A stretch of 41,795 nt of DNA from Paraspadella gotoi. Lineage: Eukaryota; Animalia; Chaetognatha. The notes beneath the pieces were generated by a model. That model was not told where the DNA came from, ran no database searches, and worked only from the letters and a program-made list of their open reading frames with translations. Within the stretch, counting starts at the first letter, position 1. Every line of letters starts with the position of its first letter. Positions 877 through 35,683 of this stretch are shown piece by piece. The position numbers and the translations under genes were made by a program. The stretch lies in NCBI GenBank assembly GCA_051294375.1, contig CM119269.1, positions 1,150,235 through 1,192,029 of the forward strand, read 5' to 3'.

Positions 877-3800
877 TGTTGCAACACGGGCCCGAGGGTC
901 AAGCCATTAGAAAGATTTGGATACCGAGCGACATCAATTTGAGGGATGTGGAGATTGACATCGCGAAGATCCCACNNNNNNNNNNNNNNNNNNNNNNNNN
1001 NNNNNNNNNNNNNNNNNNNNNNNNNNNNNNNNNNNNNNNNNNNNNNNNNNNNNNNNNNNNNNNNNNNNNNNNNNNNNNNNNNNNNNNNNNNNNNNNNNNN
1101 NNNNNNNNNNNNNNNNNNNNNNNNNNNNNNNNNNNNNNNNNNNNNNNNNNNNNNNNNNNNNNNNNNNNNNNNNNNNNNNNNNNNNNNNNNNNNNNNNNNN
1201 NNNNNNNNNNNNNNNNNNNNNNNNNNNNNNNNNNNNNNNNNNNNNNNNNNNNNNNNNNNNNNNNNNNNNNNNNNNNNNNNNNNNNNNNNNNNNNNNNNNN
1301 NNNNNNNNTTCGTGACACCTCACCAAAGTTCCTTCATGAGATCTTGACCCACGAGAAAACGATCCTTGTGGGAAAAGACATAGAGAAGGATATTCGGGAA
1401 TTAAATGAAATGATCGGATTCCATCCAGCCAAATCAGGAAAAATAAGGTATATCGACGTCACCGATGTTTTTGGCTTATGCCAGGCTCTCGGAGAGGGGG
1501 AACAGGANNNNNNNNNNNNNNTCCTACGCAATAAATGGGTCAAGGACTTCGATGTTTCATTGGGCTTCTTCTACAACTTCGCCTTTAGGGACCGTTTTTT
1601 AGATAAACGAAGCCATCATCGCGATCACAGATCAGATTTCGGAGAAACTCGTGACCTTCTTTTTCGATCCAGTTTCCTATTCCGGCTCCTCTTAATTTAG
1701 GACTGCAAAGCCGTCGCTTAATTTCTCCGCCACTAAAATTATTACCTATTCGCTTGGGGTTGCAACCGCCGTCCAAACGTCGCTGACGTCTCAGATATGC
1801 AGCCCAATTTTTTGGGGATGGCTCACTCTTTAAGATCGCTAGTGCTTTGAAAGAGACAGAAGCATTTCAAACGACGAAAGCTCAGGGATTTTTCTCGAAT
1901 CTAAGAAGCCTCATACATGTTTCGAAGAAAGAGTTGCCGAGGCTTGATTATGGAGAAGACCAAGCGACGCAAAGATTCGAGAAATTGCCCTAGCCAAAGA
2001 TGAAAGATGCGCCGATCGAAGAATATTCAGATATGTCTTCGGGGGAGTGCGAACCGTCTCTCGTTCGCGGGATAGAGAGGTTGAAATATTGGCCAATCCA
2101 CTTTGTCCGCTCTTGCGTCGCCAACTGACACGCTCACACGGCCCCTAACTCGCCAGTTGCTCTCCTCAAGATTGCCCGCATCATCGTATCACACCACTAA
2201 AAGTTCCGGCCTTCGTGTCCAGACGCGAGTTCACCTACGACCGGGTCGTGGCCTTGGGCATTGAATTGCATATGCTAAAACAAAGCGAGATTACTTCATT
2301 TCTGAAATCGATCCGGACTTCCATCTCGACCAAAACGATGGTAAATTGGGTGGAGATCCTCAGGAACTCCCAATGGACTCCAAGAAGAATCGCCAAAGGT
2401 TCGTTCGATTGCGCGAACGATGATGGGATTCTTCTCGGGTCGCCGCCTCGCCGACTTTGTGCCTCGCGATCCTCGAAAAGGAGTCTGTTGGTCAAGCAAG
2501 CTCGCCGGCTTGGATCCAGCTAAATTATTTCTCTGTCTCCCAGCTGTTTTGCTGGACTACTTTCTCAATATATCAAATCGCTCGGACACCATTGAAAACT
2601 GTGGCCAAGAGCTTTTCAGAAAAATCAAATTGCTAAAACAATGATAGGCCTCATAATTTCGGGATATAAGATGAAGGGCGCAATGACGGAAAGCTTCGTT
2701 CTTGTGGTTTCTACGCCGGGCTCGATAATATCGAGAATTTCGAGGAAAATTTTCCCCCATACCGGGTTGGCCGATTTGTGCGAACCCTGTGCGAAGGCAC
2801 ACGGTATCGTCCTCCCCGATATGTACACATCTGTCGTTTGTGAGGCCCGCGCCGACGTGCTCGCTCGATATCGTATTTGAGAGCGAGACGGAACAACACG
2901 ACATGTTCGAGAGGCCTGTAACGTCATCTCAACAGTTTCTGAAGTAGATTTTCAACGTGCGGTGAAAGCCATCAGCAGCGTCAATTCAATCTCTTCTGCT
3001 TCTTACTATTCATTTCATGGATTTGAGCGGCATAGTTCTCTATTCTCGTCCATTTACGCGCGCTCCACATGATTCGTTTTTCTTGACCCTATAGCTGTTT
3101 ACTTCTTTTGGCCATTCAACGATATCTTGCACAATCTTGCCCATCTTGTTTGTGGATGGCAATTCTATCAGTGCATGATAATTAATGACATAACAATTTT
3201 GGGAAATTTCGAGAAAGCCTTCGTAGTTTCAAGAATATCGGGGCCTGGGGCTTGCATTTGCCTCTCCCTGGATTGAGATAGAGCGCGTCGACTTCTGTCC
3301 TTCTGCTGCAGTGGCCGGTGTCTTCCACTTTGGCCTCCAAAGTCCATGGAACCTCGCAAAGACTTGGGCAGGATTCTCGAGGATGTGGCATCGGTCGTTG
3401 CCGGTTTTCGTCTTCAGAAGATCTCGCCTCTTCGAGTATTTTCGTCGTGTATCTCTGTTCATGGTGTTTTGTCTCGTAGGATATGGTTGGTTTCTTGTAC
3501 TGCAGTTTTATTATCTTCTGTCTATTAATGTCAAATGTTTTGGGAACCCTAGGTCAGTCGGGACGGAATGACTCTATAAAGTTGTACTGGCGGGCGGCGG
3601 GTGATTGGGTAGGACGCGGTTCTCCTCCATCTTTTCTTCGGCCGACGCCTCCGACTTCGACCCGCTCTCGCCCTATCGCATGCGCATCTTACACGTCTGT
3701 CATTTATTTTCTGCGGGCAATTTTTGTATCATTTATTTCGTTTTTGTTTCTCATTTTATAGTGGATTTCGTATTTCTTTACTTTCTTCTTATTCAATTAG
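877..3800 (+). CDS. Retrotransposon extra ORF, DEDDy 3'-5' exonuclease-containing protein, copy 1 (gapped, frameshifted, very noisy after ~2940)
   Basis: ORF 771..1700 gives ...KFLHEILTHEKTILVGKDIEKDIREL...IRYIDVTDVF...SLGFFYNFAFRDRFLDK, an ExoII-type motif with WRN/EXD-like context. It is colinear with 23428-26190. Confidence 0.75.
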
Positions 3801-3916
3801 AGAGGGGACCCAGGCCTGCACCATGGGACATATTCCTTGTGGACATCAATACTGGGAGAACTTATTGATCCCGATGCGTGTTTGTTCGTTTTGCTGTTGT
3901 TTTATTGGTTATGTGT
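3799..3916 (+). mobile_element. Degraded PPT and start of the 3' LTR of copy 1
   Basis: AGAGAGGGGA followed by ATGGGACATATTCCTTGTGGACATC...ACTTATTGATCCCGATGCGT matches the LTR start at 26205-26270. It ends at a 25-N gap. Confidence 0.65.
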
Positions 3917-3951: not shown

Positions 3952-5963
3952 AGTTTCATTGGGCTTCTTTCTACAACTTCGCCCTTTAGGGACCTTTTTT
4001 TAGATTAACGAAGCATTACATCGCTGATCTACGAGATCAGATTTCGGAGAAAAAATCTCTGTGACCTCTTGTCCCCCGAGCCGAGTTGTCCTAATGCCGC
4101 CCTCGACGCACAAAGCCAGCTCGTGCGGATTGCCGCCACTAAACATTATACTTTACCGATGCTTGGGTTGCACCGCGGCCAACTCGCTCGCGGAGATATG
4201 CAGCCCAATTTTTGGGGATGGCTCACTCTTTAAGATCGCTAGTGCGCTTTGAAAGAGAATGAAGCATTTCAACGACGAGAAGCTCAGGGATTTTTCTCGA
4301 ATCTTAAGAAGGCGCTCATTACATGTTTCGAAGAAGAGATGTTGGCCGAGGCTGAGATGGAGAAGACCAAGGCGAGCGCAAAGACTGTCGAGAAATTGCC
4401 CTAGCCAAGATGAAGAATGGCGCCCGATCGAAGAATATTCAGAGATTGTCTGTCGGGGGAGTGCGAACCAGTCTCTCGGTGTCGGATAGGGCTGGAGATA
4501 CGTGAAGACGATATGTGGCCGGGCAATCTCCCTATTGTCCCGTCTTAGCGGTCGCCAATCTGAACGCTCAGCAACACGGCCACCTAACTCCGGCCAGTTC
4601 GTCCTGCGCTCAATAGATTGGGGCCGCGCAGCTTAATCCGATATGACAGTCGCCAAAAGTTCCGGCGCTTGCGTGGTCGCAGACCAGGGCGAAGTTGCAC
4701 CTCCGACCGGGTACGTGGGGCCTGGGCATTGGAGAATTGTCATTATAGGCTTAAAGACAAAGGCGAGATTACTTCATTTCTGAAATCGATCGCGGACTTC
4801 ATCTCCGACCAAAAGATGGTATATTGGGTGAGAATCCTCATGGAACTCCCGAATGGACTCCAAGCAAGAATCGCCAAAAGGTTCGTTCGATTGCGCCGAA
4901 CGATGATGGGATTCTTCTCGGGTCGCCGCCTGCCGACTTTTGTCTCCGCGATCGCTCGAGAAAGGAGTCGTTGGTCAAGCAAGCTCGCCGGCTTGATCCA
5001 GCTAAATTATTTCTCTGTGCTCCCAGCTGTTTTGCTGGACTACTTTCTCAATGATATCAAATCGCTCGGACACATTGAAAACTGTGGGCCAAGAGCTTTG
5101 CAGAAAAATCAATGCGGGCGTAAGAATATCCTACAATGATAGGCCTCATAATTTCGGGATATAAGATGAAGGGCGCAATGACGGAAAAGCTTCGTTCTTG
5201 TGGTTTCTACGCCGGGCTCGATAATATCGAGAATTTCGAGGAAAGATTTTCCCCATACCGGGTTGGCCGATTTGTGCGAACCCTGTGCGAAGCACACGGT
5301 ATCGTCCTCCCCGATATGTACCATCTGGTCGTTTGTGAGGCCCGCGCCGACGTGCTCGTCGAATCGTATTTGAGAGGCGAGACGGAACAACACGACATGT
5401 TCGAAGCCTGTAACGTCATCTCAACAGGTTCTGAAGAGATTTTCAAGCGTTGCGTGAAACGCATCGCAGCGTCAGATTCAACTCTCGCCACATTCATCAT
5501 GGATTTGAGCGGCATAGCCTACCGTCCATTTACGCCTGCTCCACATGATNNNNNNNNNNCAAGCTGTACTCTGCCATTCAACGATATCTTGCACAACTTG
5601 CCCACCTTGTTGCGTGATGGCAATCTACACGGCAAGATAATTAATGACAAAACAATTTTGGGAAAATTTCGAGAAGCACTTCGTAGTTCCAAGAATATCG
5701 CTGTGGGCTTCATTTGCCTCTCCCTGGATTGGAGAGAGCGCGTCGACTTTCCGTCCTTCTGCTGCAGTGGCCGTGTCTTCCACTTTGGCCCCAAAAGTCT
5801 CATGGAACCTCGCAAAGACTTGGGCAGGATCTCGAGGATTCGCATCCGCGTCGGCTTTTCGTCTTCAGAAGGATTCGCCTCTTCGAGTATTTTCGTCGTG
5901 ACCTGTCATGGGTGCCGAGGAAGTGGGTCGACGCAGAAGACGTCTGCAAACAGAATGGTTGGG
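3952..5963 (+). CDS. Retrotransposon extra ORF, copy 2 (partial; probably a redundant assembly of copy 1)
   Basis: Repeats the sequence from ~1553 onward directly after a 25-N gap. It holds the cleanest reading of the C-terminal half (ORF 5136..6212: KLRSCGFYAGLDNIENFEERFSPYRVGRFVRTLCEAHGIVLPDMY...ALRSSKNIAVGF) and shares diagnostic substitutions with copy 1. Confidence 0.75.
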
Positions 5964-13440: not shown

Positions 13441-14039
13441 CAGATATGTAACAATCCTTTTGAACTGTGCAGTTTAAAAAAAATGTTTAATGATTAACAA
13501 TCAAGGCGTTTTACCGCCAGTGATCTCTTATTATCGTTATTATAAAAAAAAGCCTTCTCCATGGCTGAAACAAACCAAAAAAAAAGAAAAAAAATAGAAA
13601 AGAAAAAAATAGAAAAGAAAAGAAAAACAAAAGGGAAAAAAACCGGATGAGCATTAAAAGCTGAGGAAGTTTGGAAACGAGACGTCGCCTCGTTTCGCGA
13701 GCGGAAACGAGCTAAAGGGCGAACGAAAGCGAACGGAAGAGAACAAGGGTGAAGGCAAACAAAGCGAACAAGCGCGAACAGAAAACGCGACAGAACAGAG
13801 AAAGACAAAGAAAGACAAGGAAAAATGGACGGACTGACTGACAAGCACGAATAGGCGGACAGAAAAAAAAAGGAGAGAGAAATATAATCGTACATAAAGA
13901 GAAAGGAGAAGTGGGAGAGATGTCTTTCACGCAAGCAAGCAAGCCGACCAAGCTATTATCAACGTCGAACCCAGCAGCGAATTTGTCACCAAGGAGGCGT
14001 AACCAGGATATATATATATAGATAAATTAGATAATATAT

Positions 14040-14332
14040 TGTATGAATTGGTAACAACCAATATAAAAATTATCCATTCATTTAATAAATAAGCTATCTT
14101 GCCCTGACTTTGGACAGCGCTTTGGTGGTTTAAGGCCTCCATCACTCTTACAGATAATGTACATAGCAGGTCCCCTGCAAGCTTTCAATCAAGACTCTCT
14201 CACAGTCCCGTTTATTCACTCCCAGAGTACCTGGCTTCCTATCACATGAAGTGGAAAATATTTCAAAGAATGTTTCAATTGTATGAAAAGACCACTCTCC
14301 CTTAAGTATTAGATCGGGAATACTTATTGTAT
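14040..14332 (+). mobile_element. Unclassified dispersed repeat, ~290 bp (longest copy)
   Basis: Segments recur at ~26724-26939, ~27655-27790 and ~28268-28332 with different flanks, e.g. AATAAATAAGCTATCTTGCC and TTATTCACTCCCAGAGTACC. Confidence 0.75.
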
Positions 14333-16092: not shown

Positions 16093-16857
16093 ATTATGCG
16101 ATTATGCGAGTAAAGAAAGTATAGGGAGGCAGAAGAGAAGTCGAGGGCGATAAGAGAAGGAAGGGAAGGAAAGAAAGAGAGATAGGTAAGAGGAGGTATT
16201 AAGAAGAAGAGGAGAAAAGGAGAGGAAGGGAGGAGATGGGATCAAAGATAGGTAAGAGAAGTAAATAGGAAGAAGAGAGGCAGGTGAGGAAAAAGATGTT
16301 TTCCTCGAATAAGTGTTGCATTTTAATGTTCGGCAAACGCGTCCCGTTTCAAATTTATGGAGCGGGATATGCGGGAAGGCGGACGGGAATATGCATTTTA
16401 ATGTCGTCTTTCGACTTTTGATACCTCACTTCATTTCTCTTTCGAGAAGATTGAGACTTCGACTTACCCTCTAAACATCTTTGATGGGATCTTAACCCAC
16501 CCGTCCTCACCCTAAACTTTCTTTTCCTTCTGACGTCACTCGGAAAAAAAATTTCTCCGTGACCCGTAGTGGCCACGCCCTTCCGAATTGAAAGCCACGA
16601 GATTTAACTCTGACGAACCCCGACTTCGATCGTGCCCGCCCTAGAGAGTTGACCGATTCCGGTTCCTTACCCTTATGGCCTTTTAACCCTACCTCAACGT
16701 CCACCAACTCCACAGCCTTACCAGACCTTACCCTTGCTCCCGCGTCTCTTTTTCTCGCTGAGTCGGCGAATCCAAATCGGCTCCGCCTCCGTGGGAATTT
16801 TCTTTCTTTCTTTTTTTAGATGAGAAAAAAAAAAAAAAGATTTTGGAAAAAAAAAAA

Positions 16858-17176
16858 GAAGAAGCGAGATGGATGACGAAATTGGAATCGAAACGTTTTC
16901 ATCGTTTTTTTTCTCCGGATGATTATAAATGTGTTTTGTCACACTTTTATATCTCTTATTATTTAAAAATCATCTACAATTAAGTGAAAAAAAAATGTCA
17001 GACGGAAGAAAGAGGCGTTCCATGACGACCACGGCGTCATCTGCTTCGAAATCAAAGAACTACGTAATTCGCGAAATTACTTCATTACATCGAAAGCTGC
17101 GTCGTTGCTTCTACTCCGATCGTCGTAATCGAACCGGCGCCGGGATTAAGAACGGGGAAAATGTTTGAGAAATAAA

Positions 17177-17240
<64 letters not shown>

Positions 17241-17590
17241 ACAAAAAAAAAAAAAAAAAATAGGAATCGATTAATTCCTTCCTTTTTCCGAAATCGAGAT
17301 NNNNNNNNNNNNNNNNNNNNNNNNNGGGAGTAGAAGCAACGACGCAGCTTTCGATGTAATGAAGTAATTTCGCGAAATTACGTAGTTCTTTGATTTCGAA
17401 GCAGATGACGCCGTGGTCGTCATGGAAACGCCTCTTTCTTCCGTCTGACTTTTTTTTTCACTTAATTGTAGATGATTTTTAAATAATAAGAGATATAAAA
17501 GTGTGACAAAACACATTCATAATCATCCGGAGAAAAAAACGATGAAAACGTTTCGATTCCAATTTTCGTCATCCATCTCGCTTCTTCTTT
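16858..17590. repeat. Inverted duplication of ~260 bp (16858-17117 versus 17326-17590)
   Basis: The second arm is the reverse complement of the first and starts exactly at the 25-N gap at 17301-17325. Twin ORFs 16929..17168(+) and 17271..17516(-) reflect it. Confidence 0.85.
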
Positions 17591-17919
17591 TTTTTTTTCC
17601 TCATCTCGTTATAAAAGTTGAATTTCCTCGCGGACGATTTTCCCCTCGTTAAAAACCGCGATTTCGTTCATGGGCGAGTTTCTCTCCCATAAATGGTCCC
17701 GGCGTCCACCTGTTCCGGCTCAGTTTTGTCGTTGTCGTTTTCCGGCGGCGGGGTTGTTGTCGTCTCTCTCTCTCTCTCTCTGTCTCTCTCTGGAACGGCG
17801 TCTCTGGTTTCGACGCCGGAGGAGGAGAGAAAAAAAGAACCAGGAGCCGGTGGCGAATTCCGGCGCCAAAATCGACGATCGATGGCGAAGATAAGAGGAA
17901 AGGAAAGAAACGAGATATG

Positions 17920-21359: not shown

Positions 21360-21859
21360 TTGTTCCGCCTTTGCCCTATCACAGCTCCTCTCGGTTGCGA
21401 TCCAAAAATCCTACTTTGGCACTAAAATGTCAACTGCCTACTCGTCTGAAGATATAATCAATTAATCATTTATCGTCGCGACTCTCGCATCCCGAAGCAC
21501 CAGCAATAAAAGCTAATTAAATGTAAACGTCGTCAGAGGAAATTAAAATGTTATTTCGAATTGGAGAAACGGAAACGAAAAAAAAAAACCTAAAAAAAAA
21601 AAAATATGGAAAGATTAAAAGATAAAACATAAAGTAGATTAATATTTACGTGGAAAGACTGAACTTGTGTACAGTGTAATTTGTGCATCATGTTGAAAAT
21701 ACACAAATCTAATATATATCTAATACATTTATTAAGGACATGAAATGGAAATATGGGCACTTTTTTAAAGAGATTTTTTATAAATATTAATTTATATATT
21801 TTATATATTTATAACTAAGTCTAAAAGCAGAAAAAAACATTTAAAATCCGGATTAAAGA

Positions 21860-22719
21860 AAACCGTGGACTCTCACAGTTAAGGAGAGACGCCCTAATTC
21901 TCAAGGCAAAGCCTAGGACATCTTACATTTGCGAAGATAAAGAAGGCAAACAAGTCAAAAGAAATCGTGAAAACACTAAAAATTGTTAATTCCAAAATAC
22001 AACGAACTGATGAAAATGCCTCTTCCCAAAAGAAGAACCAAGTTTCTCCATTAGCTTCTACGCGCATTATCAATGCTTCTAATGACGGGCCCGTCCACAT
22101 CCTTTGGAAATCGAACTCTCACTTCCTGACGAGGTACCAGAAGATCCGGACGAGGATCCGTTCACTGAAGCACCAATACCGGAAAATGTCCGCGGAATGG
22201 TGATATTAGAAATGAGCTACGATACTCCTGACGCTAATGAGGAAGATGAGCTTGACGAGCCCTTGCTACTACCACTGCCTCCTGGGGATACCTCAGTTCA
22301 CCCAAAAACCAAGGAAATCCAGAAGAAGGTTAAACGGCCAATAACACCGAAATGGGGAATAAAAGAAGTTTTCGTAAGTGACTAGAGAAACTTCGAAACT
22401 TCCGAAACCATTCATAGAATCTCTCGAAAACTGCTGTTTTTACTGGAGTTATGGAACAAAGTTTCAGAAATCGCTGCCAAATCGGTAGATGACGACGTCT
22501 TCTCTCCCTTTTCTGAAAAAGATCTCATAAAATAACGGCATTAAACCCACCCTTGGTAAATCTAAGAAAGACGTTTCGGGTAAGAAATCCTTACCCCCGT
22601 CTGCACGCACCTCACCGCGTTTGTTTAAATTACAAATTGGTGATAAAGAAAACAATCTTCTACTCCCTCTGAGGAAACTGGTTATACGACGAAGCGAAAG
22701 ATTGCGTGCTTTTAAATAG
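21860..22719 (+). pseudogene. pol: 3' end of retrotransposon pol (post-integrase SH3-like region plus long acidic/basic tail), frameshifted
   Basis: With 1-nt indel corrections it reads KPWTLTVKERRPNSQGKPRTSYICEDKEGKQVKRNR(K)HLKIV, matching the W..V...PRSY.V...G...RNR.HL pattern that follows many Gypsy integrases. It ends VIRRSERLRAFK* (22681-22719). Confidence 0.7.
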
Positions 22720-23294
22720 ACAATATACTGATATCGTAACCAGTCGATAATATTAGAATAGTAGCACATACATCTCGAGATCCTGTAGCCCTCCAGTACC
22801 TCAAAAAAGATGATTAGAATTTTACTTACATCCTATATATAGATATTTCAAGTTTTAAAATTAGAATAGTACATGATTTTTATCTTAAAGAATAGAAGTT
22901 ATTTTACTTCAGAATAGTTTTTATTATCCCCTTGTTAGGGGGCCAGTTTTTTTACTCCAATCCAAACCCTAATGCTCAAAGTTACAACTCAATTAGCTTA
23001 ACATTATTTCGATATTGTTTTTAAGCATCGGCTTCAATTAAGAACGCAAAGAGTAATAACTAATCCTAATTCTGTATGCCTGACCGCGCTGAGAACTGCC
23101 TGTGATACGCCTGAGCTTTGTTTTAAAATTCGAATTATGTTCTATCCTTTTGACTCTTTGTTTTTTGGCTTTATATGCAATGTTCTTCGTAAGCGCTAGG
23201 CTATGTTTAGCTTTTTGTTGTTGATAAAATTATTGAGCTAATCAATTTGAAACTATTTTTTCAAAACAATTTATTTTCTAGTTGTTTGATCTCT

Positions 23295-26190
23295 AAAAGT
23301 CGCGAAATCCAAGAAAAACCAGCGAATGGGCAAGAAAAATAGATGCCGTACCAAAAACGCCTTGTATGCGCTTGCCCATGGTGATCAACGTTCCAAGTGG
23401 ACATCCCAAAAGATCAAAGGGCCGTCTGATGTTGCAACACGGGCCGCGAGGGTCAAGCGATTGAAAGATCTGGATACCGAGGCGACAACTCAATTTGAGG
23501 GATGTGGAGATGCGAGCAGTCGGCGAAAGGATACCCACTACCAAGACGGAATGCGCCCAAGTCACCGAACACCGTGACGTGACCAGTTCGGAAAAACTTT
23601 CAATGAAGATGGGAAGGTACGGTTTGGAGTGCTTCCACGTGTCTAAGATTGATCATGTCGCACATATTACCCAAGCGAAGACGAAAGAGTGGGTGCTCGA
23701 TTGCTCGCTATGACTATCAAGCGCCGATACAGATGTCATTATCGGTTTCGAGTTCAGAAGAAGGTGGCGCGGACGGCTCAACTTTCAGCTCAACTCGGTG
23801 ACGAGGAAGATCAACGTCGTGTAATCAGCTGAAGTCCTGCCAGAGGGGACTGCTTTCGTGACACCTCACCAAAGTTCCTTCATGAGATCTTGACCCACGG
23901 AAGACGATCCTTGTGGGAAAGACATAGAGAAGGACATTCGGGAATTAATGAAATGATCGGATTCCATCCAGCCAAATCAGGAAAATAAGGTATATCGATG
24001 TCACCGAATGTTTTTTGGCTTATGCAGGCTCTCGGAGAGGGGGAACAGGAACCTCTGTCACTTCATCCTACGCAATAAATGGGTCAAGGACTTCGATGTT
24101 TCATTGGCTTCTTCTCAACTTCGCCTTTAGGGACCGTTTTTTAAGATAAACGAAGCCATCATCGGAATCACAGATCAGATTTCGGAGAAACTCGTGGCCT
24201 CTGTCCCCGGAGCCAGTTGTCCTATGCCGCCCTCGACGCCAAAGCCGCTCGCGATCTCGCCATCTAAAAATTATTACCATGCTTGGGTTGCAACCCGGCC
24301 AACTCGCTCGCCAGATATGCAGCCCAATTTTGGGATGGCTCACTCTTTAAGATCGCTAGTGCCTTTGAAAGAGACGAAGCATTCAAGACGAAAGCTCTAG
24401 GGATTTTCTCGAATCTTAAGAAGGCTCATACATTTCCGAAGAAGAGTTGCCGGAGGCTGAGATGGAGAAGACCAAGCGACGCAAGATTCGAGAAATTGCC
24501 CTAGCCAAGATGAAGATGCGCCGATCGAAGGAATATTCAGAGAATTTGTCTTCGGGGAGTGGCGAACCAGTCTCTCGTTCGCGGGATAAGAGGTTGAGAT
24601 ATGTGGCGCAATCCCTTTGTCCGCTCTTTGCGTCGCCAACCTGAACCGCTCACACGGCCCCTAACTCCGCCAGTTGCTCCTCCTCAAGATTGCCGCCATC
24701 ATCGTATCAACACCCTAAAAGTTCCGCCTTTGTGTCCAGACGCGAGTCACCTCGACCGGGTCGTGCCTCGGCATTGAAATTGCATATGCTAAAACAAAGC
24801 GGCGAGATTACTTCATTTCTGAAATCGATCCGGACTTCATCTCCGACCAAAACGAATGGTAAATTGGGTGGAGATCCTCACGGAACTCCAATGGACTCCA
24901 AAGAAGAATCAGCCAAAGGTTCGTTCGATTGCGCGAACGATGATGGGATTCTTCTTCGGGTCGCTCGCCTGCGCCGACTTTGTCTCCGCGATCCTCAGAA
25001 AGGAGTCTTTGGGTCAAGCCAAGCTCGCCGGCTTGATCAGCTAAATTATTTCTCTTTGTCCTCCAGCTGTTTTGCTGGACTACTTTCTCAATATATCAAA
25101 TCGCTCGGACACATTGAAAACTGTGGCCAAGAGCTTTCAGAAAAATCAAATTCGCTACAATGATAGGCCTCATAATTTCGGGATATAAGATGAAGGGCGC
25201 AATGACGGAAAAGCTTCGTTCTTGTGGTTTCTACGCGGGCTCGATAATATCGAGAATTTCGAGGAAAGATTTTCCCCATAACCGGTTGGCCCGATTTGTG
25301 CGAACCCTGTGCGAAGCACAAGGTATCGCCTCTCCCGGATATGTAACCATCTGGTCGTTTGTGAGGCCCGCGCCGACGTGCTCATCGAATCGTATTTGAG
25401 AGGCGAGACGGACAACACGACAATGTTCGAAGCCTGTAACGTCATCTCAACAGGTTCTGAAGAGATTTTCAAGCATGTGTGTGAAACGCATCGCAAGCGT
25501 CAGATTCAACTCTCGCCACATTCATCATGAGATTTGAGCGGCATAGCTACCGTCCATTTACGCCTGCTCCACATGATTCGTTTCGACCAAGCTGTACTCT
25601 GCCGTTCAACGATATCTTGCCAACTTGCCTCACCTGTGTGCGTGATGGCAATCTACACGGCAAGATAAATTAACGACAAACAATTTTGGGAAAATTTCGA
25701 GAAGCACTTCGTAGTTCCAAGAATGTCCGCGGTTGGGCTTTCAATTTACCTCTCCTGGATTTGGAGAAGACGCGCGTCGACTTCCTGTCCTTCTGCTGCA
25801 GTGGCGTGTCTTCCACTTTGTCCCAAAAGTCCATGGAACCCGCAAAGGACTTGGGCAGGATCCCTCGAAGATTCGCATCCGCGTCGGCTTTTCGTCTTCA
25901 GAAGGATTCGCCTCTTCGAGTATTTTTCGTCGTGACCTGTCATGGGTGCCGAGGAAGTGGGTCGACGCAGAAGACGTCTCTGCCAAACAGAATGGTTGGG
26001 AACCCACCATCGACGAAATATCTATCAAAGTGACGGGGCGACGCCTATTGTAAACGCGGCCTGAATTTTCTCGGCGACGTCCTGCCGACTTCGACCGCTC
26101 TCCGCCATCGCGCGATCAACGTCTGTCTTATTCGCGAATTTTGTACACGTTTTGCTCATTAGTGTGGATGAGCGGGACGCTCGATCATAG
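23295..26190 (+). CDS. Extra ORF (~950 aa reconstructed): DEDDy 3'-5' exonuclease, helical region and degenerate exonuclease-like domain; copy 3, the most complete
   Basis: ExoI DVIIGF[D]SE at 23732-23760 needs removal of one base. ExoII LVGKDIEKD is at ~23910-23935 and is clean in copy 1. ExoIII SQLSYAALDA is in frame at 24211-24240. Frameshifts differ between copies, as expected for read errors. The start codon is uncertain. Confidence 0.8.
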
Positions 26191-26204
26191 AAGAGAGGGA
26201 AGGA
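26189..26204 (+). promoter_or_regulatory. Polypurine tract (plus-strand primer)
   Basis: AGAAGAGAGGGAAGGA immediately before TG at 26205; identical in the inverted copy at 33424-33439. Confidence 0.75.
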
Positions 26205-26558
26205 TGATGGGGACAATTCCTTGTGGAACATCATCTAAGAGACTTATTGATCGCCGATGCGTATTGTTCATTTACTGTTCGTTTATTGTCCTTTTATTTG
26301 ATTAATACCTTTGTTCCCTATTACAGCATTGTGAGCATCGTGTTATACATATATTGAATAGGAAAGTACGTGTTCGAGTGTGTGTCCTAATCTAGTTGGC
26401 GTCCCCGTCTCTTGTGTATTCATATTCGCAGATCCTATACTGTGGGCAAACATTGTGGTCGACCGTGCGCCGTGTGGTTAACTGACATTGTAGTTCATAC
26501 GTTAGAGGGTCTCGTGCTTCTCAAGCCCGGCCGGCGCCCGCCGGCATCGCCCACAACA
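26205..26558 (+). mobile_element. Putative 3' LTR, ~354 bp
   Basis: Starts TGATGGGG right after the PPT and ends CCCACAACA (reverse complement TGTTGTGGG), giving TG...CA with imperfect terminal inverted repeats. The 3' boundary is inferred because no 5' LTR is available. Confidence 0.7.
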
Positions 26559-27390
26559 TGAAGTCTTTATTTAAGCTGACACTAGCCAGGGCAACCTGTA
26601 GCGATCCATGACCTATAAAATGTCCTACCTGGGGATTGGATAATTTTATGGAGAAGTGGGAAAATATAATTAACGTATCATTAGAAGGTTATCGCTATTG
26701 TTTTTCACGGTGTTACACTAATTTATGAAATTAGTACAACCAATATAAAAATGATCCATTTATTTAATAAATAAGCTATCTTGCCTTTGCTATCTTTGAC
26801 TTTGGCTTTTGTCGTTTAAGGCCTCCATCACTCTTACAAGATAATGACATAGCAGGTCCCTGCGAGCTTTCACTCAAGACTCTCCCACAATCTCGTTTAT
26901 TCACTCCCAGAGTACCTGGCTTCCCTATCAATGAAGTGTTATTCCCTCGCTCGCCTAATTCCGCTTGAGTTTCCTCCAATCCGTCATGACATCAAAATCA
27001 TCCCCGCGACGGAAAACCGTCGACATAATCATCAACTTATGATAGGAGCCAATATGAAGCGGCTTGATTGCAGCCTCGGTTTGACGACGTGTTGCCTTTC
27101 ACGACGTCCGATGTCGATGAGCGATGATTCGATTTTCTAGTCTCGTCGTTAAATTCGCGCCGTCGCGCCGTGGCGCCGCGTCGCCGTCACGCCGCGTGGC
27201 CGCGGCGCGATAAAAATAAATACATACGTGTGAAAAAAAAAACTACTACGTAAATCGTTCGATTCGATTTTCGCCGTCAGGAAGCGGGAGAAAAAATTTA
27301 CTAATTAGGGAATCAATTAAAGGATAGTATTTGATTTGAAGCCGCAGGCATTTTCAATGAAGCAACAGATTTAAGGGAGAACGGCACGAA

Positions 27391-27437
<47 letters not shown>

Positions 27438-29218
27438 GTATGCCTCATTTCATCTTGTTACCTTCCGTATCATTTGCTGGCGTCATCCAAATTTGAGCCT
27501 TTTAATGCTTAAATTTTTAAATGAAGCTTAATATTCACGCTCACGATTTATCTATCGGTTCAAATTTAATCTTTGATTGTCGAACCCCAAAAATATAAAA
27601 ATCTATACATAACAATTTAATTTCTCTTACCGAATTTTACAGAATCTTACCGAATCTCACAGTCTCGTTTATTCACTCCCAGAGTACCAGGCTTACCTAT
27701 CAATGAAGTGGCATAATATTTCAAAGAATATTTCAATTGTATAAAAAGACCACTCCCTTAAGTATTAGATCGGGGAATACTATTGTTATGCCGGTCATGA
27801 CTAGACACGACCGTGGCCGTGGGACTCGACGACGAGATGATATCTGACTGCTGCCTCGTCCGTTTCTCCGCGAAGAAAAGAACCGAAAGAAAGGATATCA
27901 CGATTATTTTTATTGTTAGAAACGTCGCGCGAGAGAGAAATTAGTGCCTCTCGAAAAACCCACGGACGTTAAACGCTTTTAACTCTCAGCGTTGGTAGTT
28001 TAAATTTTAAGTGTTTTTATTCTCACGTTTTTAACCTTTTACCGTCGAAATTAAACTCATTAATTTCATCCACCGTTTTTATAAACTCAAACTTTTATCT
28101 CCGTTCTTCGTCGCCAATTTGTTGATAAATAAACTTACCAACCAGTTCCAAATTCTTAGCGTCCTTTAATGAAACCAAAAGTCAGTCAACGAAAAAGTAC
28201 AGCAAATCGAGAGAGGCACGAACAACTATATTGTACTCCGCTCAGCAGAAAAGTACGAGCTGAATTTTATGAAATTGGTACAACCAATATAAAAATTATC
28301 CATTAATTTAATAAATAAGCTATCTTGCCTCTGACGTATATTGTTTCTTTTTTTCAACCTTTTATAATACAAAAAAATATATAAATAAGGCGCCAAATCA
28401 GCTGAAGACCACTGTCGGTAATTTCTTTGTCAACCCTCGCCAGCAATGGCACTATTCACCAGGAATTTTCTAGCCCACAAGCCAATGCAAGTCAAGGCAT
28501 CTTACTTCCATCCTAATGCCGTATTATAAGTACCTTTGGGGAATATTCCTTTTTTAAAGAATTTGATTTATTAAGTAGATAAGGCTCAATTGGGGATGAT
28601 GGCTAAATCCAATGAGCCAGGGGGTCACAACTGAAGTTGCCATTTTGGAAGGGCGAACTAGTCGCGATGCCCTTAAGATAAATTGACAGACCGACCAAAA
28701 AAAAATATATCGCGTTTTATCGCAGTTGAGAATAACCCCAATGAAGAGGCCTCCGCTTTGTCGACGAACAACTCACGTTATTTTCCATTAGTAAAGCGGA
28801 GGAAGGGAGAAAAGGAAATTCGCTTTCCGTCCCGAGGATAAACAATACAGTTAATTACGTTCGGAAAACGGCGTTCTCCGCTACGGATATGGAATAAAAT
28901 ATTCCGTTGGGCTCGCCGTTAAGAATTTATGGTCTCATTTAATTTCAGTCCGCCAAGAAAGGAAGATTAATTTTAGTTCCGAGTTCTGAGGGAAGAGGGA
29001 GCACGGAGTCTCGCGTCTGGCGTCGGTTGAAAAGCTTCGCTGAATTTACTTTACCTTACATTTAAGAAATAAAGATTTTTGAGGTCGAATGATAAAGGAG
29101 AGAATAAAGTCAAGCAGCAAGGCTACTTGACAAAAACTAATACAAAAAATGTGACGTGTGATGCGGATTGCAGAGTAACATAGTTCGTGATAATTTAGAT
29201 CTTTGTGGAAAATGGCGG

Positions 29219-29270
29219 CCTTGCCTTGCCTTGCCTTGCCTTGCCTTGCCTTGCCTTGCCTTGCCTTGGC
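29219..29270. repeat. (CCTTG)n pentanucleotide repeat
   Basis: Also at 30228-30307 (inverted) and 36583-36656 within the duplicated blocks. Confidence 0.9.
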
Positions 29271-29406
29271 CCTTTTCCGGCGGTAAATCTTAATTTCTAC
29301 TTTCTTTTCTTTCATCAAATTTCAGTTAAGAGCAATATGAAATAGTTCTTCCTATAAACGATTGGCTACGGATATCTCTCTCTCTCTCCTCTCTCTCCTC
29401 TTCTCT

Positions 29407-29443
<37 letters not shown>

Positions 29444-30047
29444 TCTCTCCTCCTCTCTCTTTCCTTTTTTTTTCAGTTTGTTGACGTCTTATGTTCGACG
29501 GGACAACANNNNNNNNNNNNNNNNNNNNNNNNNTCTCTCTCTCTCTCTTTCCTTTTTTTTTCCAGTTTGTTGACGTCTTAGTTCGACGGGACACAATTTC
29601 TTATCAAAACAAAATCCTTTGAGCGAGTGAAGGAATGGAGAGATGGAAAATCAATAATGCTAAAATGAAAAAAAAATAAGGAGAAAAATAATATAATATA
29701 AAAAGTTTTAAAAAACCATAAAATGATATTGGTTTTTATGTTTGAGGATCGTTTAAGCCGTCGCTGTTATTTTACCTTTTGAAATTATAAGTAGATATTA
29801 TAATCTATGATAAAATTGGCGGAATCGAAAGAAATTTATTATTGTCAAATGAACTGAATATTATCGGTTGACGTTGATACAAAAAAAAATGTTGTTTGAA
29901 TTTTTGTTGCAGTTTACGTTGTTTTGGCAAAGGATCAATATTGCTTCTTCTTTCCTCCACAGAAAAAAANNNNNNNNNNNNNNNNNNNNNNNNNTGTTGT
30001 CCCGTCGAACATAAGACGTCAACAAACTGGAAAAAAAAAGGAAAGAG

Positions 30048-30105
<58 letters not shown>

Positions 30106-33043
30106 AGAGAGGAGAGAGAGAGAGATATCCGTAGCCAATCGTTTATAGGAAGAACTATTTCATATTGCTCTTAACTGAAATTTGATGAAAGAAAAGAAAG
30201 TAGAAATTAAGATTTACCGCCGGAAAAGGGCAAGGCAAGGCAAGGCGAAGGCAAGGCAAGCGCAAGGCAAGGCAAGGCAAGGCAAGGCAAGGCAAGGCAA
30301 GGCAAGGCCGCCAAGGATTTTCCACAAAGATCTAAATTATCACGAACAATGTACTCTGCAATCCGCATCACACGTCACATTTTTTGTATTAGTTTTTGTC
30401 AAGTAGCCTTGCTGCTTGACTTTATTCTCTCCTTTATCATTCGACCTCAAAATCTTTATTTCTTAAATGTAAGGTAAAAGTAAATTCAGCGAAGCCTTTC
30501 AACCGACGCCAGACGCGAGACTCCGTGCTCCCTCTTCCCTCAGAACTCGGAACTAAAATTAATCTTCCTTTCTTGGCGGACTGAAATTAAATGAGACCAT
30601 AAATTCTTAACGCGAGCCCAACGGAATATTTTATTCCATATCCGTAGCGGAGAACGCCGTTCCGAACTTAATTAACTGTATTGTTTATCCTCGGGACGGA
30701 AAGCGAATTTCCTTTTCTCCCTTCTCCGCTTTACTAATGGAAAATAACGTGAGTTGTTCGTCGACAAAGCGGAGGCCTCTTCATTGGGGTTATTCTCAAC
30801 TGCGATAAAACGCGATATATTTTTTTTGGTCGGTCTGTCAATTTATCTTAAGGGCATCGCGACTAGTTCGCCCTTCCTAAATGGCAACTTCAGTTGTGAC
30901 CCCCTGGCTCATTGGATTAGCCATCATCCCCAATTGAGCCTATGTTACTTAATAAATCAAATTCTTTAAAAAAGGAATATTCCCCAAAGGTACTTATAAT
31001 ACGGCATTAGGATGGAAGTAAGATGCCTTGACTTGCATTGGCTTGTGGGCTAGAAAATTCCTGGTTACAAGACCATGAATCGTGCCATTGCTGGCGAGGG
31101 TTGACAAAGAAATTACCGACAGTGGTCTTCAGCTGATTGGCGCCTTATTTATATATTTTTTTGTAATATAAAAGGTTTGAAAAAAAGAAACAATATACGT
31201 CAGAGGCCAAGATTAGCTTATTTATTAAATTAATGGATTAATTTTTTTAGTTGGTTGTAGCCAATTTCCATAAATTCAGCTCGTATTTTCTGCTGGCGAA
31301 GTACAATATAGTTGTCGTGCCTCTCTCGATTTGCTATACTTTTTCGTTGACTGACTTTTGGTTTCATTAATAGGACGCTAAAGAAATTTGGACTGGGGAA
31401 TTAACTGGTTGGTAAGTTTATTTATCAAACAAATTGGCGACGAAGAACGGAGATAAAAGTTGAGTTTATAAACAAGGCGGTGGATGAAATTAATGAAGTT
31501 TTAATTTCGACGGTTAAAAGGTTGAAAAACGTGAGAATAAAAACACTTAAAATTTTAAACTTCCAAACGCTGAGAGTTAAAAGCGTTTAACGGTCCGTGG
31601 GTTTTTCGAGAGGCACTAATTCTCTCTCTGCGCGACGTTTCAACAATAAAAATTAATCGTGATATCCATTCTTTCGGTTCTTTCCTCTTGCGGAGAAACC
31701 GGACGAGGCAGCCAGTCAGATAATCATCTTCGTTCGTCGAGTCACGGCCACGGTCGTGTCTAGTTCATGACCGCATAACAATCAGTATTACCCCGAATCT
31801 AATACTAAGAGTGGTCTTTTTATACAATTGAAATATTCTTAAAAATATTATGCCACTTCATTGATAGGTAAGCGCTGGTACTCTGGGAAGTGAATAAACG
31901 AGACTGTGAGATTCGCGTAAGATTCTGTAAAATTCGGTAAGAGAAATTAAATTGTTATGTATAGATTTTTATATTTTGGGGTTCGACAGATCAAAGATAA
32001 ATTTGAACCGATAGATAAATCGTGAGCGTTGGTAAATATTAAGCTTTCATTTTAAAAATTTAAGCATTAAAGGCTCAAATTTGGATGGACGCCAGCAAAT
32101 GATACGGAGGTAACAAAGATGAAATGAGGCACTGGAGAGGGATACGAAAGGTGGAGAGAGAGGAGAGGAGAGAGAGAATGTTCGTGCCGTTCTCCTCTAA
32201 ATCTGTTGCTTCATGAAAATGCCTGCGGCTTCAAATCAAATACTTATCCTTTAATTGATTTCCCTAATTAGTAAATTTTTTCTCCCGCTTCCTAACGGCG
32301 AAAATCGAATCGAACGAATTTACGTAGTAGTTTTTTTTTCACACGTATGTATTTATTTTTATCGCGCCGCGGTCCACGCGCGTGACGGCGAACGCCGGCG
32401 CCAAACGGCGCACCGCGCGAAATTTAACGAACGAGACTAGACAAACGAATCATCGCTCATCGACATCGGAACGTCGTGAAAGGCAACACGTCGTCAAACC
32501 GAGCTGCAATCCAGGACCGCTTTTCATATTGGCTCCTATCAAAAGTTGATGATGTATGTCGGGACGTTTTCCGTCGCGGGGATGATTTTGATGTCATGAC
32601 GGAATTGGAGAGAAACTCAGACGGAATTAAGGCGAGCGAGGAAATAACACTTCATTGATAGGGGAAGCCAGGTCTCTGGGAGTGATAAACGCAGATTGGT
32701 GGGGAGTCTTGAGTGAAAGCTCGCAAGGGACCTGCTATGTCATTATCTTGTAAGAGTGATGGAGGCCTTAAACGAAAAAGCCCAAAGTCAAAGATAGCAA
32801 AGGCAAGATAGCTTATTTATTAAAAATAAATGGATCATTTATTATATTGGTTGTACTACATTTTCATAATAGTGTAACACCCGTGAAAAACAATAGCGAT
32901 AACCTTCTTAATGATACGTTAATTATATTTTCTCCAACTTCTCCAAAATTAAATTATCCATCCCCAGGTAGGACATTCTTATAAGGTCATGGATCGCTAC
33001 AGGTTGCCCTGGCTAGTGTCAGCTTAAATAAAAGACTTCAGGA

Positions 33044-33423
33044 TGTTGTGGGCGATGCCGGCGGGCGCGGCCGGGCTTTGAGAAGCACGAGACCCATCGA
33101 ACCGTATGAAACGTTACAATGTCAGATTAAAACCTACACGGCGCACGGTCGACCACAATGTTGCCCCACAGTATAGGATCTGCGAATATTGAATACACAA
33201 GAGACGGGGACGCCCAACTAGAATTAGGACACACACTCGAACACGTACTTTCCTATTCAATATATGTATAACACGATTGCTCACAATGCTGCGTAATAGG
33301 AAACAAAGGTATTAATCAAATTAAAAGGGACAATAAACGCCCAAGCAGTAAATGAAACAATACGCATCGGCGAATCAATAAAGTCTCTTAGATGATGTTC
33401 CACAAGGAAATTGTCCCCATTCA
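33044..33423 (-). mobile_element. Putative LTR, inverted copy
   Basis: Reverse complement of 26205-26558 with indel noise and the same flanking sequence. Confidence 0.7.
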
Positions 33424-33437
33424 TCCTTCCCTCTCTT

Positions 33438-35214
33438 CTATGATCGAGCGTCCCTCGTCCACACTAATGAAGCAAAACGTGTAACAAAATTCCGAATAAG
33501 ACAGACGTTGCATCGCGCGATGGGCGAGAGGCGGTCGAATGTCCGGCAGACATCGCCGAGAAAATTCAAGGACGCGTTTACAATAGGCGTCGCCCGTCAC
33601 TTTTGATAGATATTTCGTCGATGGTGGGTTCCCAACCATTCTGTTTGGCAGGGAAGTCTTCTGCCGTCGACCCACTTCCTCGGCACCCATGGACAGGTCA
33701 CGACGAAAATATACCGAAGAGGCGAAATCCTTCTGAGACGAAAAGCCGACGCGGCGATGCCGAATCTTGAGGATCCTGCCAAGTCCTTTGGCGGGTTGCC
33801 ATGGACTTTTGGGAACAAGTGGAAGACACGGCCACTCAGCAGAAGGACAGGAAGTCGACGCGCTCTTCTCCAAATCCAGCGCGAGAGGTATAATGAAGCC
33901 TCACCGCGACATCTTGGAACTACGAAGTGCTTCTCGAAAATGTTTCCCAAAATTTGTTTTGTCGTTAATTACTTGGGCCGTGTAGATTGCCATCACGCAA
34001 CAAGGTGGGCAAGTTGTGCAAGATATCGTTGAACGGCAGAGTACAGCTTGGTCGAAACGAATCATGTGGAGCAGCGGTAAATGACGGTAGGCTTATTCCG
34101 CTCAATCCATGATGAATGTGGCGACGAGTTGAATCTGACGCTGCGATGCGTTTCACACAAGCCTGAAAAATCTCTTCAGAACCTGTTGAGATGACGTTAC
34201 AGGTCTTCGAACAGTGTCGGTGTTGTTCCGGTACTCGCCTCTCAAATACGATTTCGCATGAGGCACGTCGGCGCGGGCCTTCACAACGACCAGATGGTTA
34301 CATATCGGGGAGGACCGATACCGTGGTGCCTTCGCAACAGCGTTCGCACAAAATCGGCAACCCGGTATGGGGAAAATCTTTCCTCGAATTCCGATATTTA
34401 TGCGAGCCCGGCGTAAAACCACAAGAACCAAGCCTTTTCCCGTCATTGCGCACCTTCATCTTATATCCCGAAATTAATGTAGGCCTATCATTGTAGGCGA
34501 TTTTGATTTTTCTTGAAAGCTCTTGGCCACAGTTTTCAATGTGTCCGAGCGATTTGATATATTGACAAAGTAGTCCAGCCAAAACAGCTGGAGGACAAAG
34601 AGAAAATAATTTAGCTGGGGATCAAGCCGGGCGAGCTTGCTTGACCCCAAAGACCTCCTTTCTCGAGGAATCGCCCGGAGAACAAAGTCGGCGAGGCGGG
34701 CGACCCGAGAAGAATCCGCATCATCGTTCGCGCAAATCGAACCGAACCTTTTTTTGGCGATTCTTCTTGGAGTCCTTTGGAGTTCGCGTGGAGGCATTCT
34801 CCACCCAATTTTACCATTCGTTTTGTCGGAGATGAAGTCGGATCGATTTCAAAATGAAGTAATCTCGCTTTGTTTTAGCATAAATGCAATTTCCAATTGC
34901 CGCAGGCACGACCCGGTCGAGGTGACTCGCGTTGGAACACAAAAGGCGGAACTTTTAGGGTGTGGATACCATGATGCGGCAATCTTGAGGAGGGAGCAAC
35001 TGGCGGAGTTAGGGCCGTGTGAGCGGTTCAGTTGGCCGACGCAAGAGCGGACAAAGGAAAATTGCGCCAACATATCTCAGACCTCTATATCCCGGCGAAC
35101 GAGAGACTGGTTCGCACTCCCCGAAGACAAATCTTCTGATCATTCCTTCGATCGGCGCATTCTCATCTTGGCTAGGGCAATTTTTTCGCTTCTCCGTCGC
35201 TTTTCGGTCTTCTC
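33438..35214 (-). CDS. Extra ORF copy 4 (C-terminal ~60%, inverted; probably redundant with copy 3)
   Basis: Reverse complement of ~24464-26190. Shares diagnostic substitutions and downstream flank with copy 3. Confidence 0.7.
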
Positions 35215-35289
35215 GTCGTCAGTCGTCGTCGTCGTTTTAGAAAAAAAAGGATTTATATCACAAAGAAAAAAAAAGAAAAGCCATGAAAA

Positions 35290-35658
35290 ACTGAACGATA
35301 CACTCTGCAATCTTGAAACCAAGCATTGAACGATACGCTCTGCAATCTTGAAACCAAGCACTGAACGATACGCTCTGCAATCTTGAAACCAAGCACTGAA
35401 TGATACGCTCTGTAATCTTGAAACCAAGCACTGAACGATACGCTCTGCAATCTTGAAACCAAGCACTGAATGATACGCTCTGCAATCTTGAAACCAAACC
35501 ATTGAATGATACACTCTGCAATCTTGAAACCAAGCACTGAATGATATGCTCTGCAATCTTGAAACCGAGCACTGAATGATACGCTCTGCAATCTTGAAAC
35601 CAAGCACTGAATGATACACTCTGCAATCTTGAAACCAAGCACTGAACGATACGCTCTG
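35290..35658. repeat. 35-bp minisatellite (GCACTGAATGATACGCTCTGCAATCTTGAAACCAA), ~10 units
   Basis: Head-to-tail units with period 35 and no spacers; ends at a 25-N gap. Confidence 0.95.
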
Positions 35659-35683
35659 NNNNNNNNNNNNNNNNNNNNNNNNN

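What the first reader, a model, noticed from the sequence alone, without database searches (positions are those of the whole stretch)
21848..26558. Gypsy-like LTR retrotransposon carrying a DEDDy 3'-5' exonuclease gene in the env position
Seen in sequence: on one strand and in order there is an integrase-tail motif ending at a stop (22719), a ~570-bp AT-rich spacer, a ~2.9-kb intronless coding region, a PPT (26189-26204) and a TG...CA LTR-like segment (26205-26558). The coding region contains IIGF[D]SE, LVGKDIEKD and QLSYAALDA. Established knowledge: these are ExoI/II/III motifs of DnaQ-like DEDDy exonucleases (WRN exonuclease, EXD2, Mut-7/EXD3/Nibbler, RNase D), and the slot between pol and PPT normally holds env or nothing. 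I see no signal peptide or transmembrane segment. Inference: this retrotransposon family carries its own 3'-5' exonuclease as a third ORF. It might interfere with host small-RNA (piRNA/siRNA) 3'-end processing, or edit or trim reverse-transcription intermediates, since RT lacks proofreading. I know of no standard description of this arrangement but cannot search the literature.
Basis: partly seen in the sequence, partly recalled or inferred. Interest (0 to 1): 0.92.

Follow-up and report, generated by a model that had tools for sequence, protein, structure and literature searches.

The report
Retrotransposon carrying a DEDDy exonuclease gene
This is the 3' end of a repeated, likely Gypsy-type jumping gene that carries, where an envelope gene would sit, a large frameshifted gene with a predicted nucleic-acid-trimming (DEDDy exonuclease) domain; the layout is already described in bdelloid rotifers, but this element may also start its own copying without a tRNA.

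Summary
Partly confirmed. The PPT, TG...CA LTR and exonuclease motifs are present, but there is no intact ORF. DEDDy identity has moderate support: ESM Atlas PF01612 at 0.94, Pfam DEDDh_C at E=9e-4, and a home-made profile ranking ExoIII first of 83,590 positions (domain z=4.9). Contigs of four runs end at 26558, two bridge ORF-PPT-LTR and two run 1.1 and 3.6 kb upstream, so this is a 5'-truncated copy of a repeat family. Gag, RT, a second LTR and a TSD were not seen. The arrangement is published for rotifer Juno/Vesta elements (PMC5408684), and this scan noted RRP6-like versions in other genomes. Possibly new: a gene of about 950 codons with an unassigned C-terminal part, and a sequence behind the LTR complementary to LTR 26501-26510, as in Tf1 self-priming. 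Likely role: trimming RNA 3' ends to blunt host small-RNA silencing (inferred, about 35%). Interest 0.4.

The parts
21863..22719 (+). 3' tail of the upstream (likely pol/integrase) frame, frameshifted, acidic and proline-rich, ending RRSERL...stop; the element is 5'-truncated here
   Evidence: motif and stop; family contigs match from 21870, and single contigs run 1,087 (X5 record 15) and 3,618 (X9 record 21) letters further upstream into DNA absent from the window; by eye those letters resemble the lead-in to an integrase GPY/F module (motif recalled). No Pfam hit.
22720..23325 (+). AT-rich spacer with a splice-acceptor-like T-rich tract ending in AG at 23280-23281
   Evidence: Contigs split into variant spacers at 22880-23094 (table 5). 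Splicing is inferred.
23326..26190 (+). Third gene (about 950 codons if continuous, end uncertain), broken by many frameshifts: basic N-terminus, DEDDy domain, about 600-codon unassigned C-terminal part
   Evidence: First ATG 23326; stop-free runs; covered by contigs in all 4 runs; a middle piece from a sibling copy is predicted all-helical at low confidence.
23700..24256 (+). DEDDy (PF01612-like) 3'-5' exonuclease domain: ExoII D at 23933, ExoIII Y at 24223 and D at 24235; ExoI acidic residues unresolved at about 23724-23756
   Evidence: own profile; sibling copy 1311-1505.
26189..26204 (+). Polypurine tract, 16 of 16 purines
   Evidence: also present in the fold-back arm.
26205..26558 (+). 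3' LTR, 354 bp, TG...CA
   Evidence: cover ends and loose ends begin at 26558 in 4 of 4 runs; X9 record 26 and X1 record 6 bridge ORF, PPT and LTR. The 5' edge rests on the PPT and TG only.
26501..26510 (+). Candidate self-primer: reverse complement of the sequence that follows the LTR end in family contigs
   Evidence: table 7 compared by eye: 10 of 10 in X4 and X9, 9 of 10 in X5, partial in X1; chance about 4e-4 per LTR, judged after the fact.
26530..26545 (+). GC-rich hairpin in the likely U5 region
   Evidence: Fold of 26496-26558.
877..3916 (+). Sibling copy 1 of the third gene, with N gaps, followed by a noisy PPT and LTR start
3953..5963 (+). Sibling copy 2 of the 3' two-thirds of the gene; 5124-5549 is open for 142 codons
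32998..35214 (-). Inverted second pass over the gene's 3' part and the LTR, part of a 5.3-kb fold-back that includes the flank; likely a read artefact, not an independent copy

Best explanation
This is the 3' portion of a repeated LTR retrotransposon, likely of the Ty3/Gypsy kind, whose slot between the pol tail and the PPT holds a large gene with a predicted DEDDy 3'-5' exonuclease domain that would most likely trim RNA 3' ends to weaken the host's small-RNA silencing of the element. Shown: PPT, LTR end, the ORF-PPT-LTR link in independent contigs, and the ExoII and ExoIII motifs. Inferred: the Gypsy label; that the frameshifts are read errors; expression from a spliced or subgenomic RNA as a separate, non-membrane protein; catalytic activity; and the target. 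The confidence value is for what the element is. My odds on the role, given that identity: small-RNA interference about 35%, trimming of the element's own primer or cDNA ends about 25%, passenger or catalytically dead about 20%, other about 20%.
For: LTR element: PPT abutting TG; cover stops at 26558 in 4 of 4 runs; X9 record 26 spans 25252-26391 and X1 record 6 spans 25260-26260; X1 record 2 and X9 record 23 run from the spacer at 23094 through the exonuclease domain; contigs continue upstream of 21870; several LTR variants join at 26330 and 26362. DEDDy: 28 of 30 Atlas hits in PF01612 clusters, top score 0.94, 182 of 256 features, family on 24% of that cluster's members; DEDDh_C, E=8.7e-4; ExoIII block 20.9 bits, rank 1 of 83,590, next 9.8; local frameshift-aware score reached by 1 of 200 shuffles; whole-domain score z=4.9, 0 of 100 shuffles. 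Not env: no clear transmembrane stretch (19-residue hydropathy at most 1.75) and no env family hit. Precedent: PMC5408684. For the role: the gene stands apart from pol, so packaging with RT is not assured, and mut-7/Nibbler-type DEDDy enzymes act on small-RNA 3' ends (own knowledge; mut-7 link also raised in PMC5408684).
Against: No gag, RT, integrase core, 5' LTR or TSD was seen. No listed contig spans pol tail to third gene in one piece; that link rests on the window and on overlapping contigs (one joint has only 21 letters on its short side). Contig depth over the pol tail is higher than over the exonuclease part (roughly 3-fold in X1, 20-fold in X9; a weak measure), so many pol-sharing copies may carry a diverged third gene or none. 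The Pfam hit is under its cut-off (19.9 vs 27 bits) and is to a DEDDh model; PF01612 itself was not hit by hmmscan. In this copy the ExoI half-block ranks 421 and the ExoII block 1,103 of 83,590. No homologue was found by word searches, phmmer or PDB sequence search. Nothing here bears directly on function, and PMC5408684 found no clear link between ORF3 and copy number.
Confidence: 0.75

Rival explanations
1. The exonuclease serves the element's own reverse transcription. The family self-primes as Tf1 does, and the enzyme trims an unpaired 3' tail on the self-primer, or extra bases on the cDNA ends, before integration.
For: Behind the LTR end, contigs of all 4 runs share a short start and then diverge. 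It does not begin like a tRNA-3'-end site, and 10 letters are complementary to 26501-26510 (chance about 4e-4). A hairpin lies between. Tf1 uses an 11-base complement of its RNA 5' end and a U5 stem-loop (PMC7175516, passages).
Against: Tf1 self-primes with RNase H alone and needs no extra nuclease. The transcription start is unknown. The loose ends are majority lines over 2-8 contigs (agreement 0.66-0.68 in three runs, 0.98 in X9) and may belong to sister families sharing the LTR 3' half. An internal tRNA-fragment primer was not excluded. The gene is not fused to pol.
Confidence: 0.2
2. The gene is a passenger or a catalytically dead, RNA-binding derivative (as EXD1 or Maelstrom are), carried by one minor subfamily without an enzymatic role.
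For: ExoI cannot be read. The exonuclease part is covered by one contig variant per run where the 3' part has two. PMC5408684 reports no significant departure from neutrality within the genome.
Against: ExoII D and ExoIII YxxxD are intact as read. Differences to sister contigs are mostly transitions (94 of 143 places in X1), so diverged versions of the region persist in the family. Pieces of 142 and 65 codons are open.
Confidence: 0.17
3. The stretch is an assembly chimera, or a non-autonomous LTR element that picked up a host exonuclease retrocopy, and the gene is not regular cargo of a pol-encoding family.
For: The window is a gap-filled noisy scaffold with a fold-back. Depth changes across the spacer, no single listed contig spans it, and the 3' flank (26575-26715) has no cover in any of the 4 runs.
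Against: Cover is present in 29 of 30 bins in all 4 runs. X5 record 15 runs 160 bases into the spacer and X1 record 2 and X9 record 23 start inside it. In sibling copy 1 a by-eye integrase zinc-finger-like fragment (about 700-776) precedes the gene across an unsized gap.
Confidence: 0.12

Closest known systems
Juno1/2 and Vesta2/5 LTR retrotransposons of bdelloid rotifers with a DEDDy ORF3, and Athena/Terminon DEDDy ORFs (Rodriguez, Kenefick and Arkhipova 2017, PMC5408684; read: start of abstract, part 2 of 5 of the text, Discussion, passages)
   Same: DEDDy exonuclease gene downstream of pol in the env slot, no TM segment, TG...CA LTR within their 159-551 bp range, partial copies, same proposed functions.
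   Different: Here the gene is about 950 codons with about 600 unassigned C-terminal codons (I saw no length for the rotifer DEDDy ORFs, so the size contrast is unverified). The host is unidentified. Their DEED motif change and dUTPase could not be checked, and shared ancestry of the exonucleases was not tested.
Cellular DEDDy exonucleases of PF01612 (WRN-exo, EXD2, mut-7/Nibbler, RNase D, NrnC)
   Same: ExoII D and ExoIII YxxxD in order; nearest Atlas clusters are eukaryotic PF01612 proteins.
   Different: ExoII D to ExoIII Y spans about 97 codons as read, against 66 residues in E. coli RNase D (alignment). No close homologue was found, and no subfamily could be assigned.
Tf1/sushi self-priming LTR retrotransposons (PMC7175516, PMC6317226, PMC4600332; passages read)
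   Same: Sequence just behind the LTR is complementary to about 10 bases inside the LTR, with a hairpin between.
   Different: Described from fungi, vertebrates and some plants as chromoviruses. No chromodomain was detected in this pol tail (noisy sequence). The RNA start is unmapped, and I saw no ORF3 exonuclease reported for them.

Membership tests
Ty3/Gypsy LTR retrotransposon | LTR with TG...CA ends preceded by a PPT | tested here: met
   (3' end at 26558 in 4 of 4 runs).
Ty3/Gypsy LTR retrotransposon | Two LTRs around the internal region, with a TSD | tested here: inconclusive
   One LTR in this copy; no genome held. A shared sequence behind the LTR end in contigs suggests 5' LTRs exist.
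Ty3/Gypsy LTR retrotransposon | pol order PR-RT-RH-IN (integrase last) and RT phylogeny | not testable with these tools
   The pol core is absent from the window. Contigs continue upstream but only 30 letters are shown; the GPY/F-like and RRSxRL-like motifs are by eye and recalled.
DEDDy exonuclease (PF01612-like) | ExoI D-x-E | tested here: inconclusive
   A frame break falls inside the motif; the profile path is ambiguous there; other copies have N gaps or do not reach it.
DEDDy exonuclease (PF01612-like) | ExoII D | tested here: met
   D at 23933; one-frame LVGKDIEKD in the sibling copy, with Atlas and Pfam support.
DEDDy exonuclease (PF01612-like) | ExoIII Y-x3-D | tested here: met
   24223 and 24235; rank 1 of 83,590 positions.
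DEDDy exonuclease (PF01612-like) | Curated profile score above cut-off | tested here: inconclusive
   Only fragments could be scanned; best 19.9 bits against a cut-off of 27, to DEDDh_C.
DEDDy exonuclease (PF01612-like) | Metal-dependent 3'-5' activity | not testable with these tools
   Needs an assay.
env gene (errantivirus-like) | Signal peptide, TM anchor, fusion-protein homology | tested here: not met
   Basic N-terminus; best hydropathy windows 1.6-1.75 lie in frames of uncertain status; no env family hit.
Juno/Vesta lineage | dUTPase between PR and RT; DEED motif; clustering with rotifer TE exonucleases | not testable with these tools
   No pol core, ExoI unresolved, rotifer sequences not held.
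Tf1/sushi self-priming group | PBS complementary to the 5' end of the element's RNA | tested here: inconclusive
   A 10-base complement was found; the RNA start is unknown.
Tf1/sushi self-priming group | Chromodomain after the integrase | tested here: inconclusive
   None found in the frameshifted tail.

The most novel reading that the evidence does not exclude
An invertebrate Gypsy lineage that primes reverse transcription from its own RNA, as Tf1 does but outside the known self-priming hosts, and that independently captured a WRN/EXD-type exonuclease fused to a large new domain to finish its own primer or cDNA ends: a retrotransposon with a dedicated end-trimming enzyme.
Probability: 0.12. 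Interest if true: 0.75.

Novelty: new variant of a known kind. Interest (0 to 1): 0.4.

Why it matters
The arrangement is known, but my literature searches found it described only for bdelloid rotifers, and its function was untested in the 2017 paper. Another host, together with the RRP6-like cases this scan noted elsewhere, suggests that LTR elements repeatedly fill the env slot with 3'-5' exonucleases. That points to a shared advantage such as counter-silencing or end-trimming. If the self-priming hint holds, it would extend a tRNA-free priming route to a host group for which my search listed no report, and would give a concrete substrate to test.

Tried and rejected
No whole genome is held, so copies, paired LTRs and TSDs could not be counted. 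Homologue searches were blank: word search with 5124-5549 (173 candidates, 0 at E<=0.01) and with 1311-1505 (28 candidates, 0 at E<=10); phmmer over 1.84 billion proteins with 1311-1505 (0); PDB sequences; plasmids (2 chance rows); metagenome and viral contigs by protein. A 19-base LTR pattern gave 63 metagenome loci; only 1 of 63 had a longer match (34 bases) and none is a relative; it gave 0 viral contigs. A second, degenerate exonuclease domain that I suspected by eye at 25680-26100 was not supported (39 of 100 and 17 of 100 shuffles reach the scores; Pfam 0; Atlas no usable hit). A single-sequence fold of 5124-5549 reached pLDDT 56 with no PDB match at E<=0.001; the wider fold search was not run. 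No ribozyme or tRNA family was found in the LTR (Rfam, 3 chance rows; ARAGORN 0). No RNA holder is listed on record (X9 is only guessed to be RNA), so nothing is claimed on expression. The flank 26575-26715 has no contig cover, so there is no single-copy baseline and depth is not used as copy number. The rest of the window was not scanned against Pfam. Supplements of the cited papers were not read; those of PMC5408684 may give ORF3 lengths or PBS sequences.
Full report
State of the sequence. The window is a gap-filled, noisy scaffold: 14 N runs, several of exactly 25 or 100 bases, and a 5.3-kb fold-back (24465-29508 against 35214-29995, 90.6% identical, with a third pass at 35684-37253). The copies differ by 2-3 gaps per substitution, and main copy versus fold-back looks much like main copy versus the siblings. 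This is the pattern of uncorrected long reads. No whole genome is held. Earlier notes call the host an invertebrate animal; I did not test that.

Observation. The PPT (26189-26204, 16 purines, longest run in the element), the TG start and the CA end are there. RRSERL at 22687 precedes a stop at 22717-22719, and SYAALDA is read at 24220. There is no open 2.9-kb frame: the + frames hold 46-60 stops each and the longest run is 172 codons. IIGF and SEEGG are in different frames, so the first catalytic Asp is not readable. LVGKDIEKD is split in this copy and whole in the sibling copy at 1365.

Is it an LTR element? I laid the contigs of 4 of 11 listed runs (X1, X4, X5, X9; three studies) on 21848-26715. 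All four cover 29 of 30 bins. Cover stops at 26558 with loose ends in 7, 8, 7 and 2 contigs, which fixes the LTR end. X9 record 26 (25252-26391) and X1 record 6 (25260-26260) bridge the gene's end, the PPT and the LTR. X1 record 2 and X9 record 23 run from the spacer (23094) through the exonuclease domain, with about 105 window bases (23566-23670) replaced by other letters. X5 record 15 and X9 record 21 continue 1,087 and 3,618 letters upstream of 21870 into DNA the window lacks, so this copy is 5'-truncated. By eye, the 30 upstream letters shown resemble the lead-in to an integrase GPY/F module (motif recalled, no tool test). Against: no listed contig spans pol tail to gene in one piece, the spacer has variants, summed depth is higher over the pol tail and far higher over the LTR than over the exonuclease part (a weak measure), and the 3' flank has no cover. 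Other LTR variants join at 26330 and 26362, so the LTR's 3' half is shared by several subfamilies. Gag, RT, a second LTR and a TSD were not seen.

Is it a DEDDy exonuclease? Pfam on 12 frame translations gave one row, DEDDh_C at E=0.029. On 16 stop-free pieces the only row under E=0.001 was DEDDh_C for 1311-1505 (8.7e-4, 19.9 bits, cut-off 27). The ESM Atlas placed that 65-residue piece with PF01612 clusters (28 of 30 hits; top 0.94, 182 features, family on 24% of members, mostly plant records). I built a profile from 14 bacterial DEDDy domains: E. coli RNase D and PolA, plus 12 picked for diversity from 60 listed rows. Its ExoIII block scores 20.9 bits at 24208, first of 83,590 positions, with 9.8 next. 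The ExoI half-block and the ExoII block are unremarkable in this copy (ranks 421 and 1,103; ExoII ranks 45 in the sibling copy). A frameshift-aware local score of 24.0 was the best of 40 window tiles (next 19.1) and was reached by 1 of 200 shuffles. A whole-domain alignment over 23700-24256 gave z=4.9 with 0 of 100 shuffles, placing ExoII D at 23933 and ExoIII Y/D at 24223/24235; a control stretch (24400-25200) was reached by 8 of 100. That region was chosen knowing the motifs, and gap penalties were eased. ExoI stays unresolved. No homologue was found in any sequence search. The C-terminal 600 or so codons are unassigned; a 142-residue piece folds as helices at pLDDT 56 with no PDB match. There is no clear TM segment. 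A T-rich tract with AG at 23280-23281 precedes the first ATG (23326), as expected for an env-like spliced message (inference; PMC5408684 says ORF3s are typically expressed from spliced messages).

In all four runs the loose ends behind 26558 share a short start and then diverge. They do not start like a tRNA-3'-end primer site. Ten letters beginning three bases after the LTR are the reverse complement of window 26501-26510: exact in X4 and X9, 9 of 10 in X5, partial in X1 (by eye). The chance of that site is about 4e-4 per LTR (after the fact). A GC hairpin lies between (26530-26545). Tf1 primes from the first 11 bases of its RNA in this way (PMC7175516, passages), a route reported from fungi to vertebrates and in some plant lineages (PMC4600332, PMC6317226, passages). 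The cells are majority lines, may come from sister families, and the RNA start is unknown, so this is a hint only.

Mechanism. I commit to a separately expressed, non-membrane nuclease that trims RNA 3' ends, most likely small silencing RNAs (about 35%). The reasons are that the gene is not fused to pol and that mut-7/Nibbler-type enzymes act there (own knowledge). Trimming of the self-primer or cDNA ends is next (about 25%), then passenger or dead enzyme (about 20%). None of this is shown.

Comparison with what is known. PMC5408684 describes RNase D-like DEDDy ORF3s in Juno and Vesta LTR elements, acquired at least twice and shared with Athena elements, and discusses 3'-end processing and a mut-7-like role, with activity undemonstrated. 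PMC6338049 calls the DnaQ-like domain a well-known accessory domain of LTR elements (passage), and PMC6431247 repeats the rotifer case (passages). Six searches listed no report from another host; the library is limited to open papers. This scan noted RRP6-like versions in other genomes (unchecked). PMC10886601 (passages) reports tRNA primers for animal Helenus elements and no complementarity between their LTR tRNA-like part and the PBS, so it does not explain the site seen here.

Verdict. A real but known kind of arrangement, seen in a damaged copy; a new variant by gene size and possibly by priming mode. Interest 0.4.

Noticed in passing
window 700-776: A short frame reading HLAHPGVKQ resembles by eye the zinc-binding start of a Gypsy integrase (recalled motif); it lies just before an unsized N gap and sibling copy 1. 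No Pfam hit on the 25-residue piece.
   Followed up: partly
window 24465-37253: A 5.3-kb fold-back with a third pass, joined by 25-N gaps; likely a long-read artefact that inflates repeat counts in this window.
   Followed up: partly
window 26507-26530: The LTR holds a stretch that by eye resembles part of a twister ribozyme (recalled). Earlier notes report twister-bearing mini-LTR elements in this genome, but Rfam finds none here.
   Followed up: yes
window 25923-26092: Run X9 has loose ends at 26048 and 26092 from contigs that match only briefly, suggesting a more diverged sister version of the third gene.
   Followed up: no
window 35211-35693 and 37427-38022: Two arrays of a 35-base tandem repeat.
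   Followed up: no
window 14037-14330, 26719-26938, 27655-27786, 28266-28333: A second short dispersed repeat starts about 160 bases after the LTR and recurs in the window.
   Followed up: no
window 16845-17600: An inverted repeat of 276 bases at 97.8% identity around a 25-N gap; possibly another fold-back.
   Followed up: no
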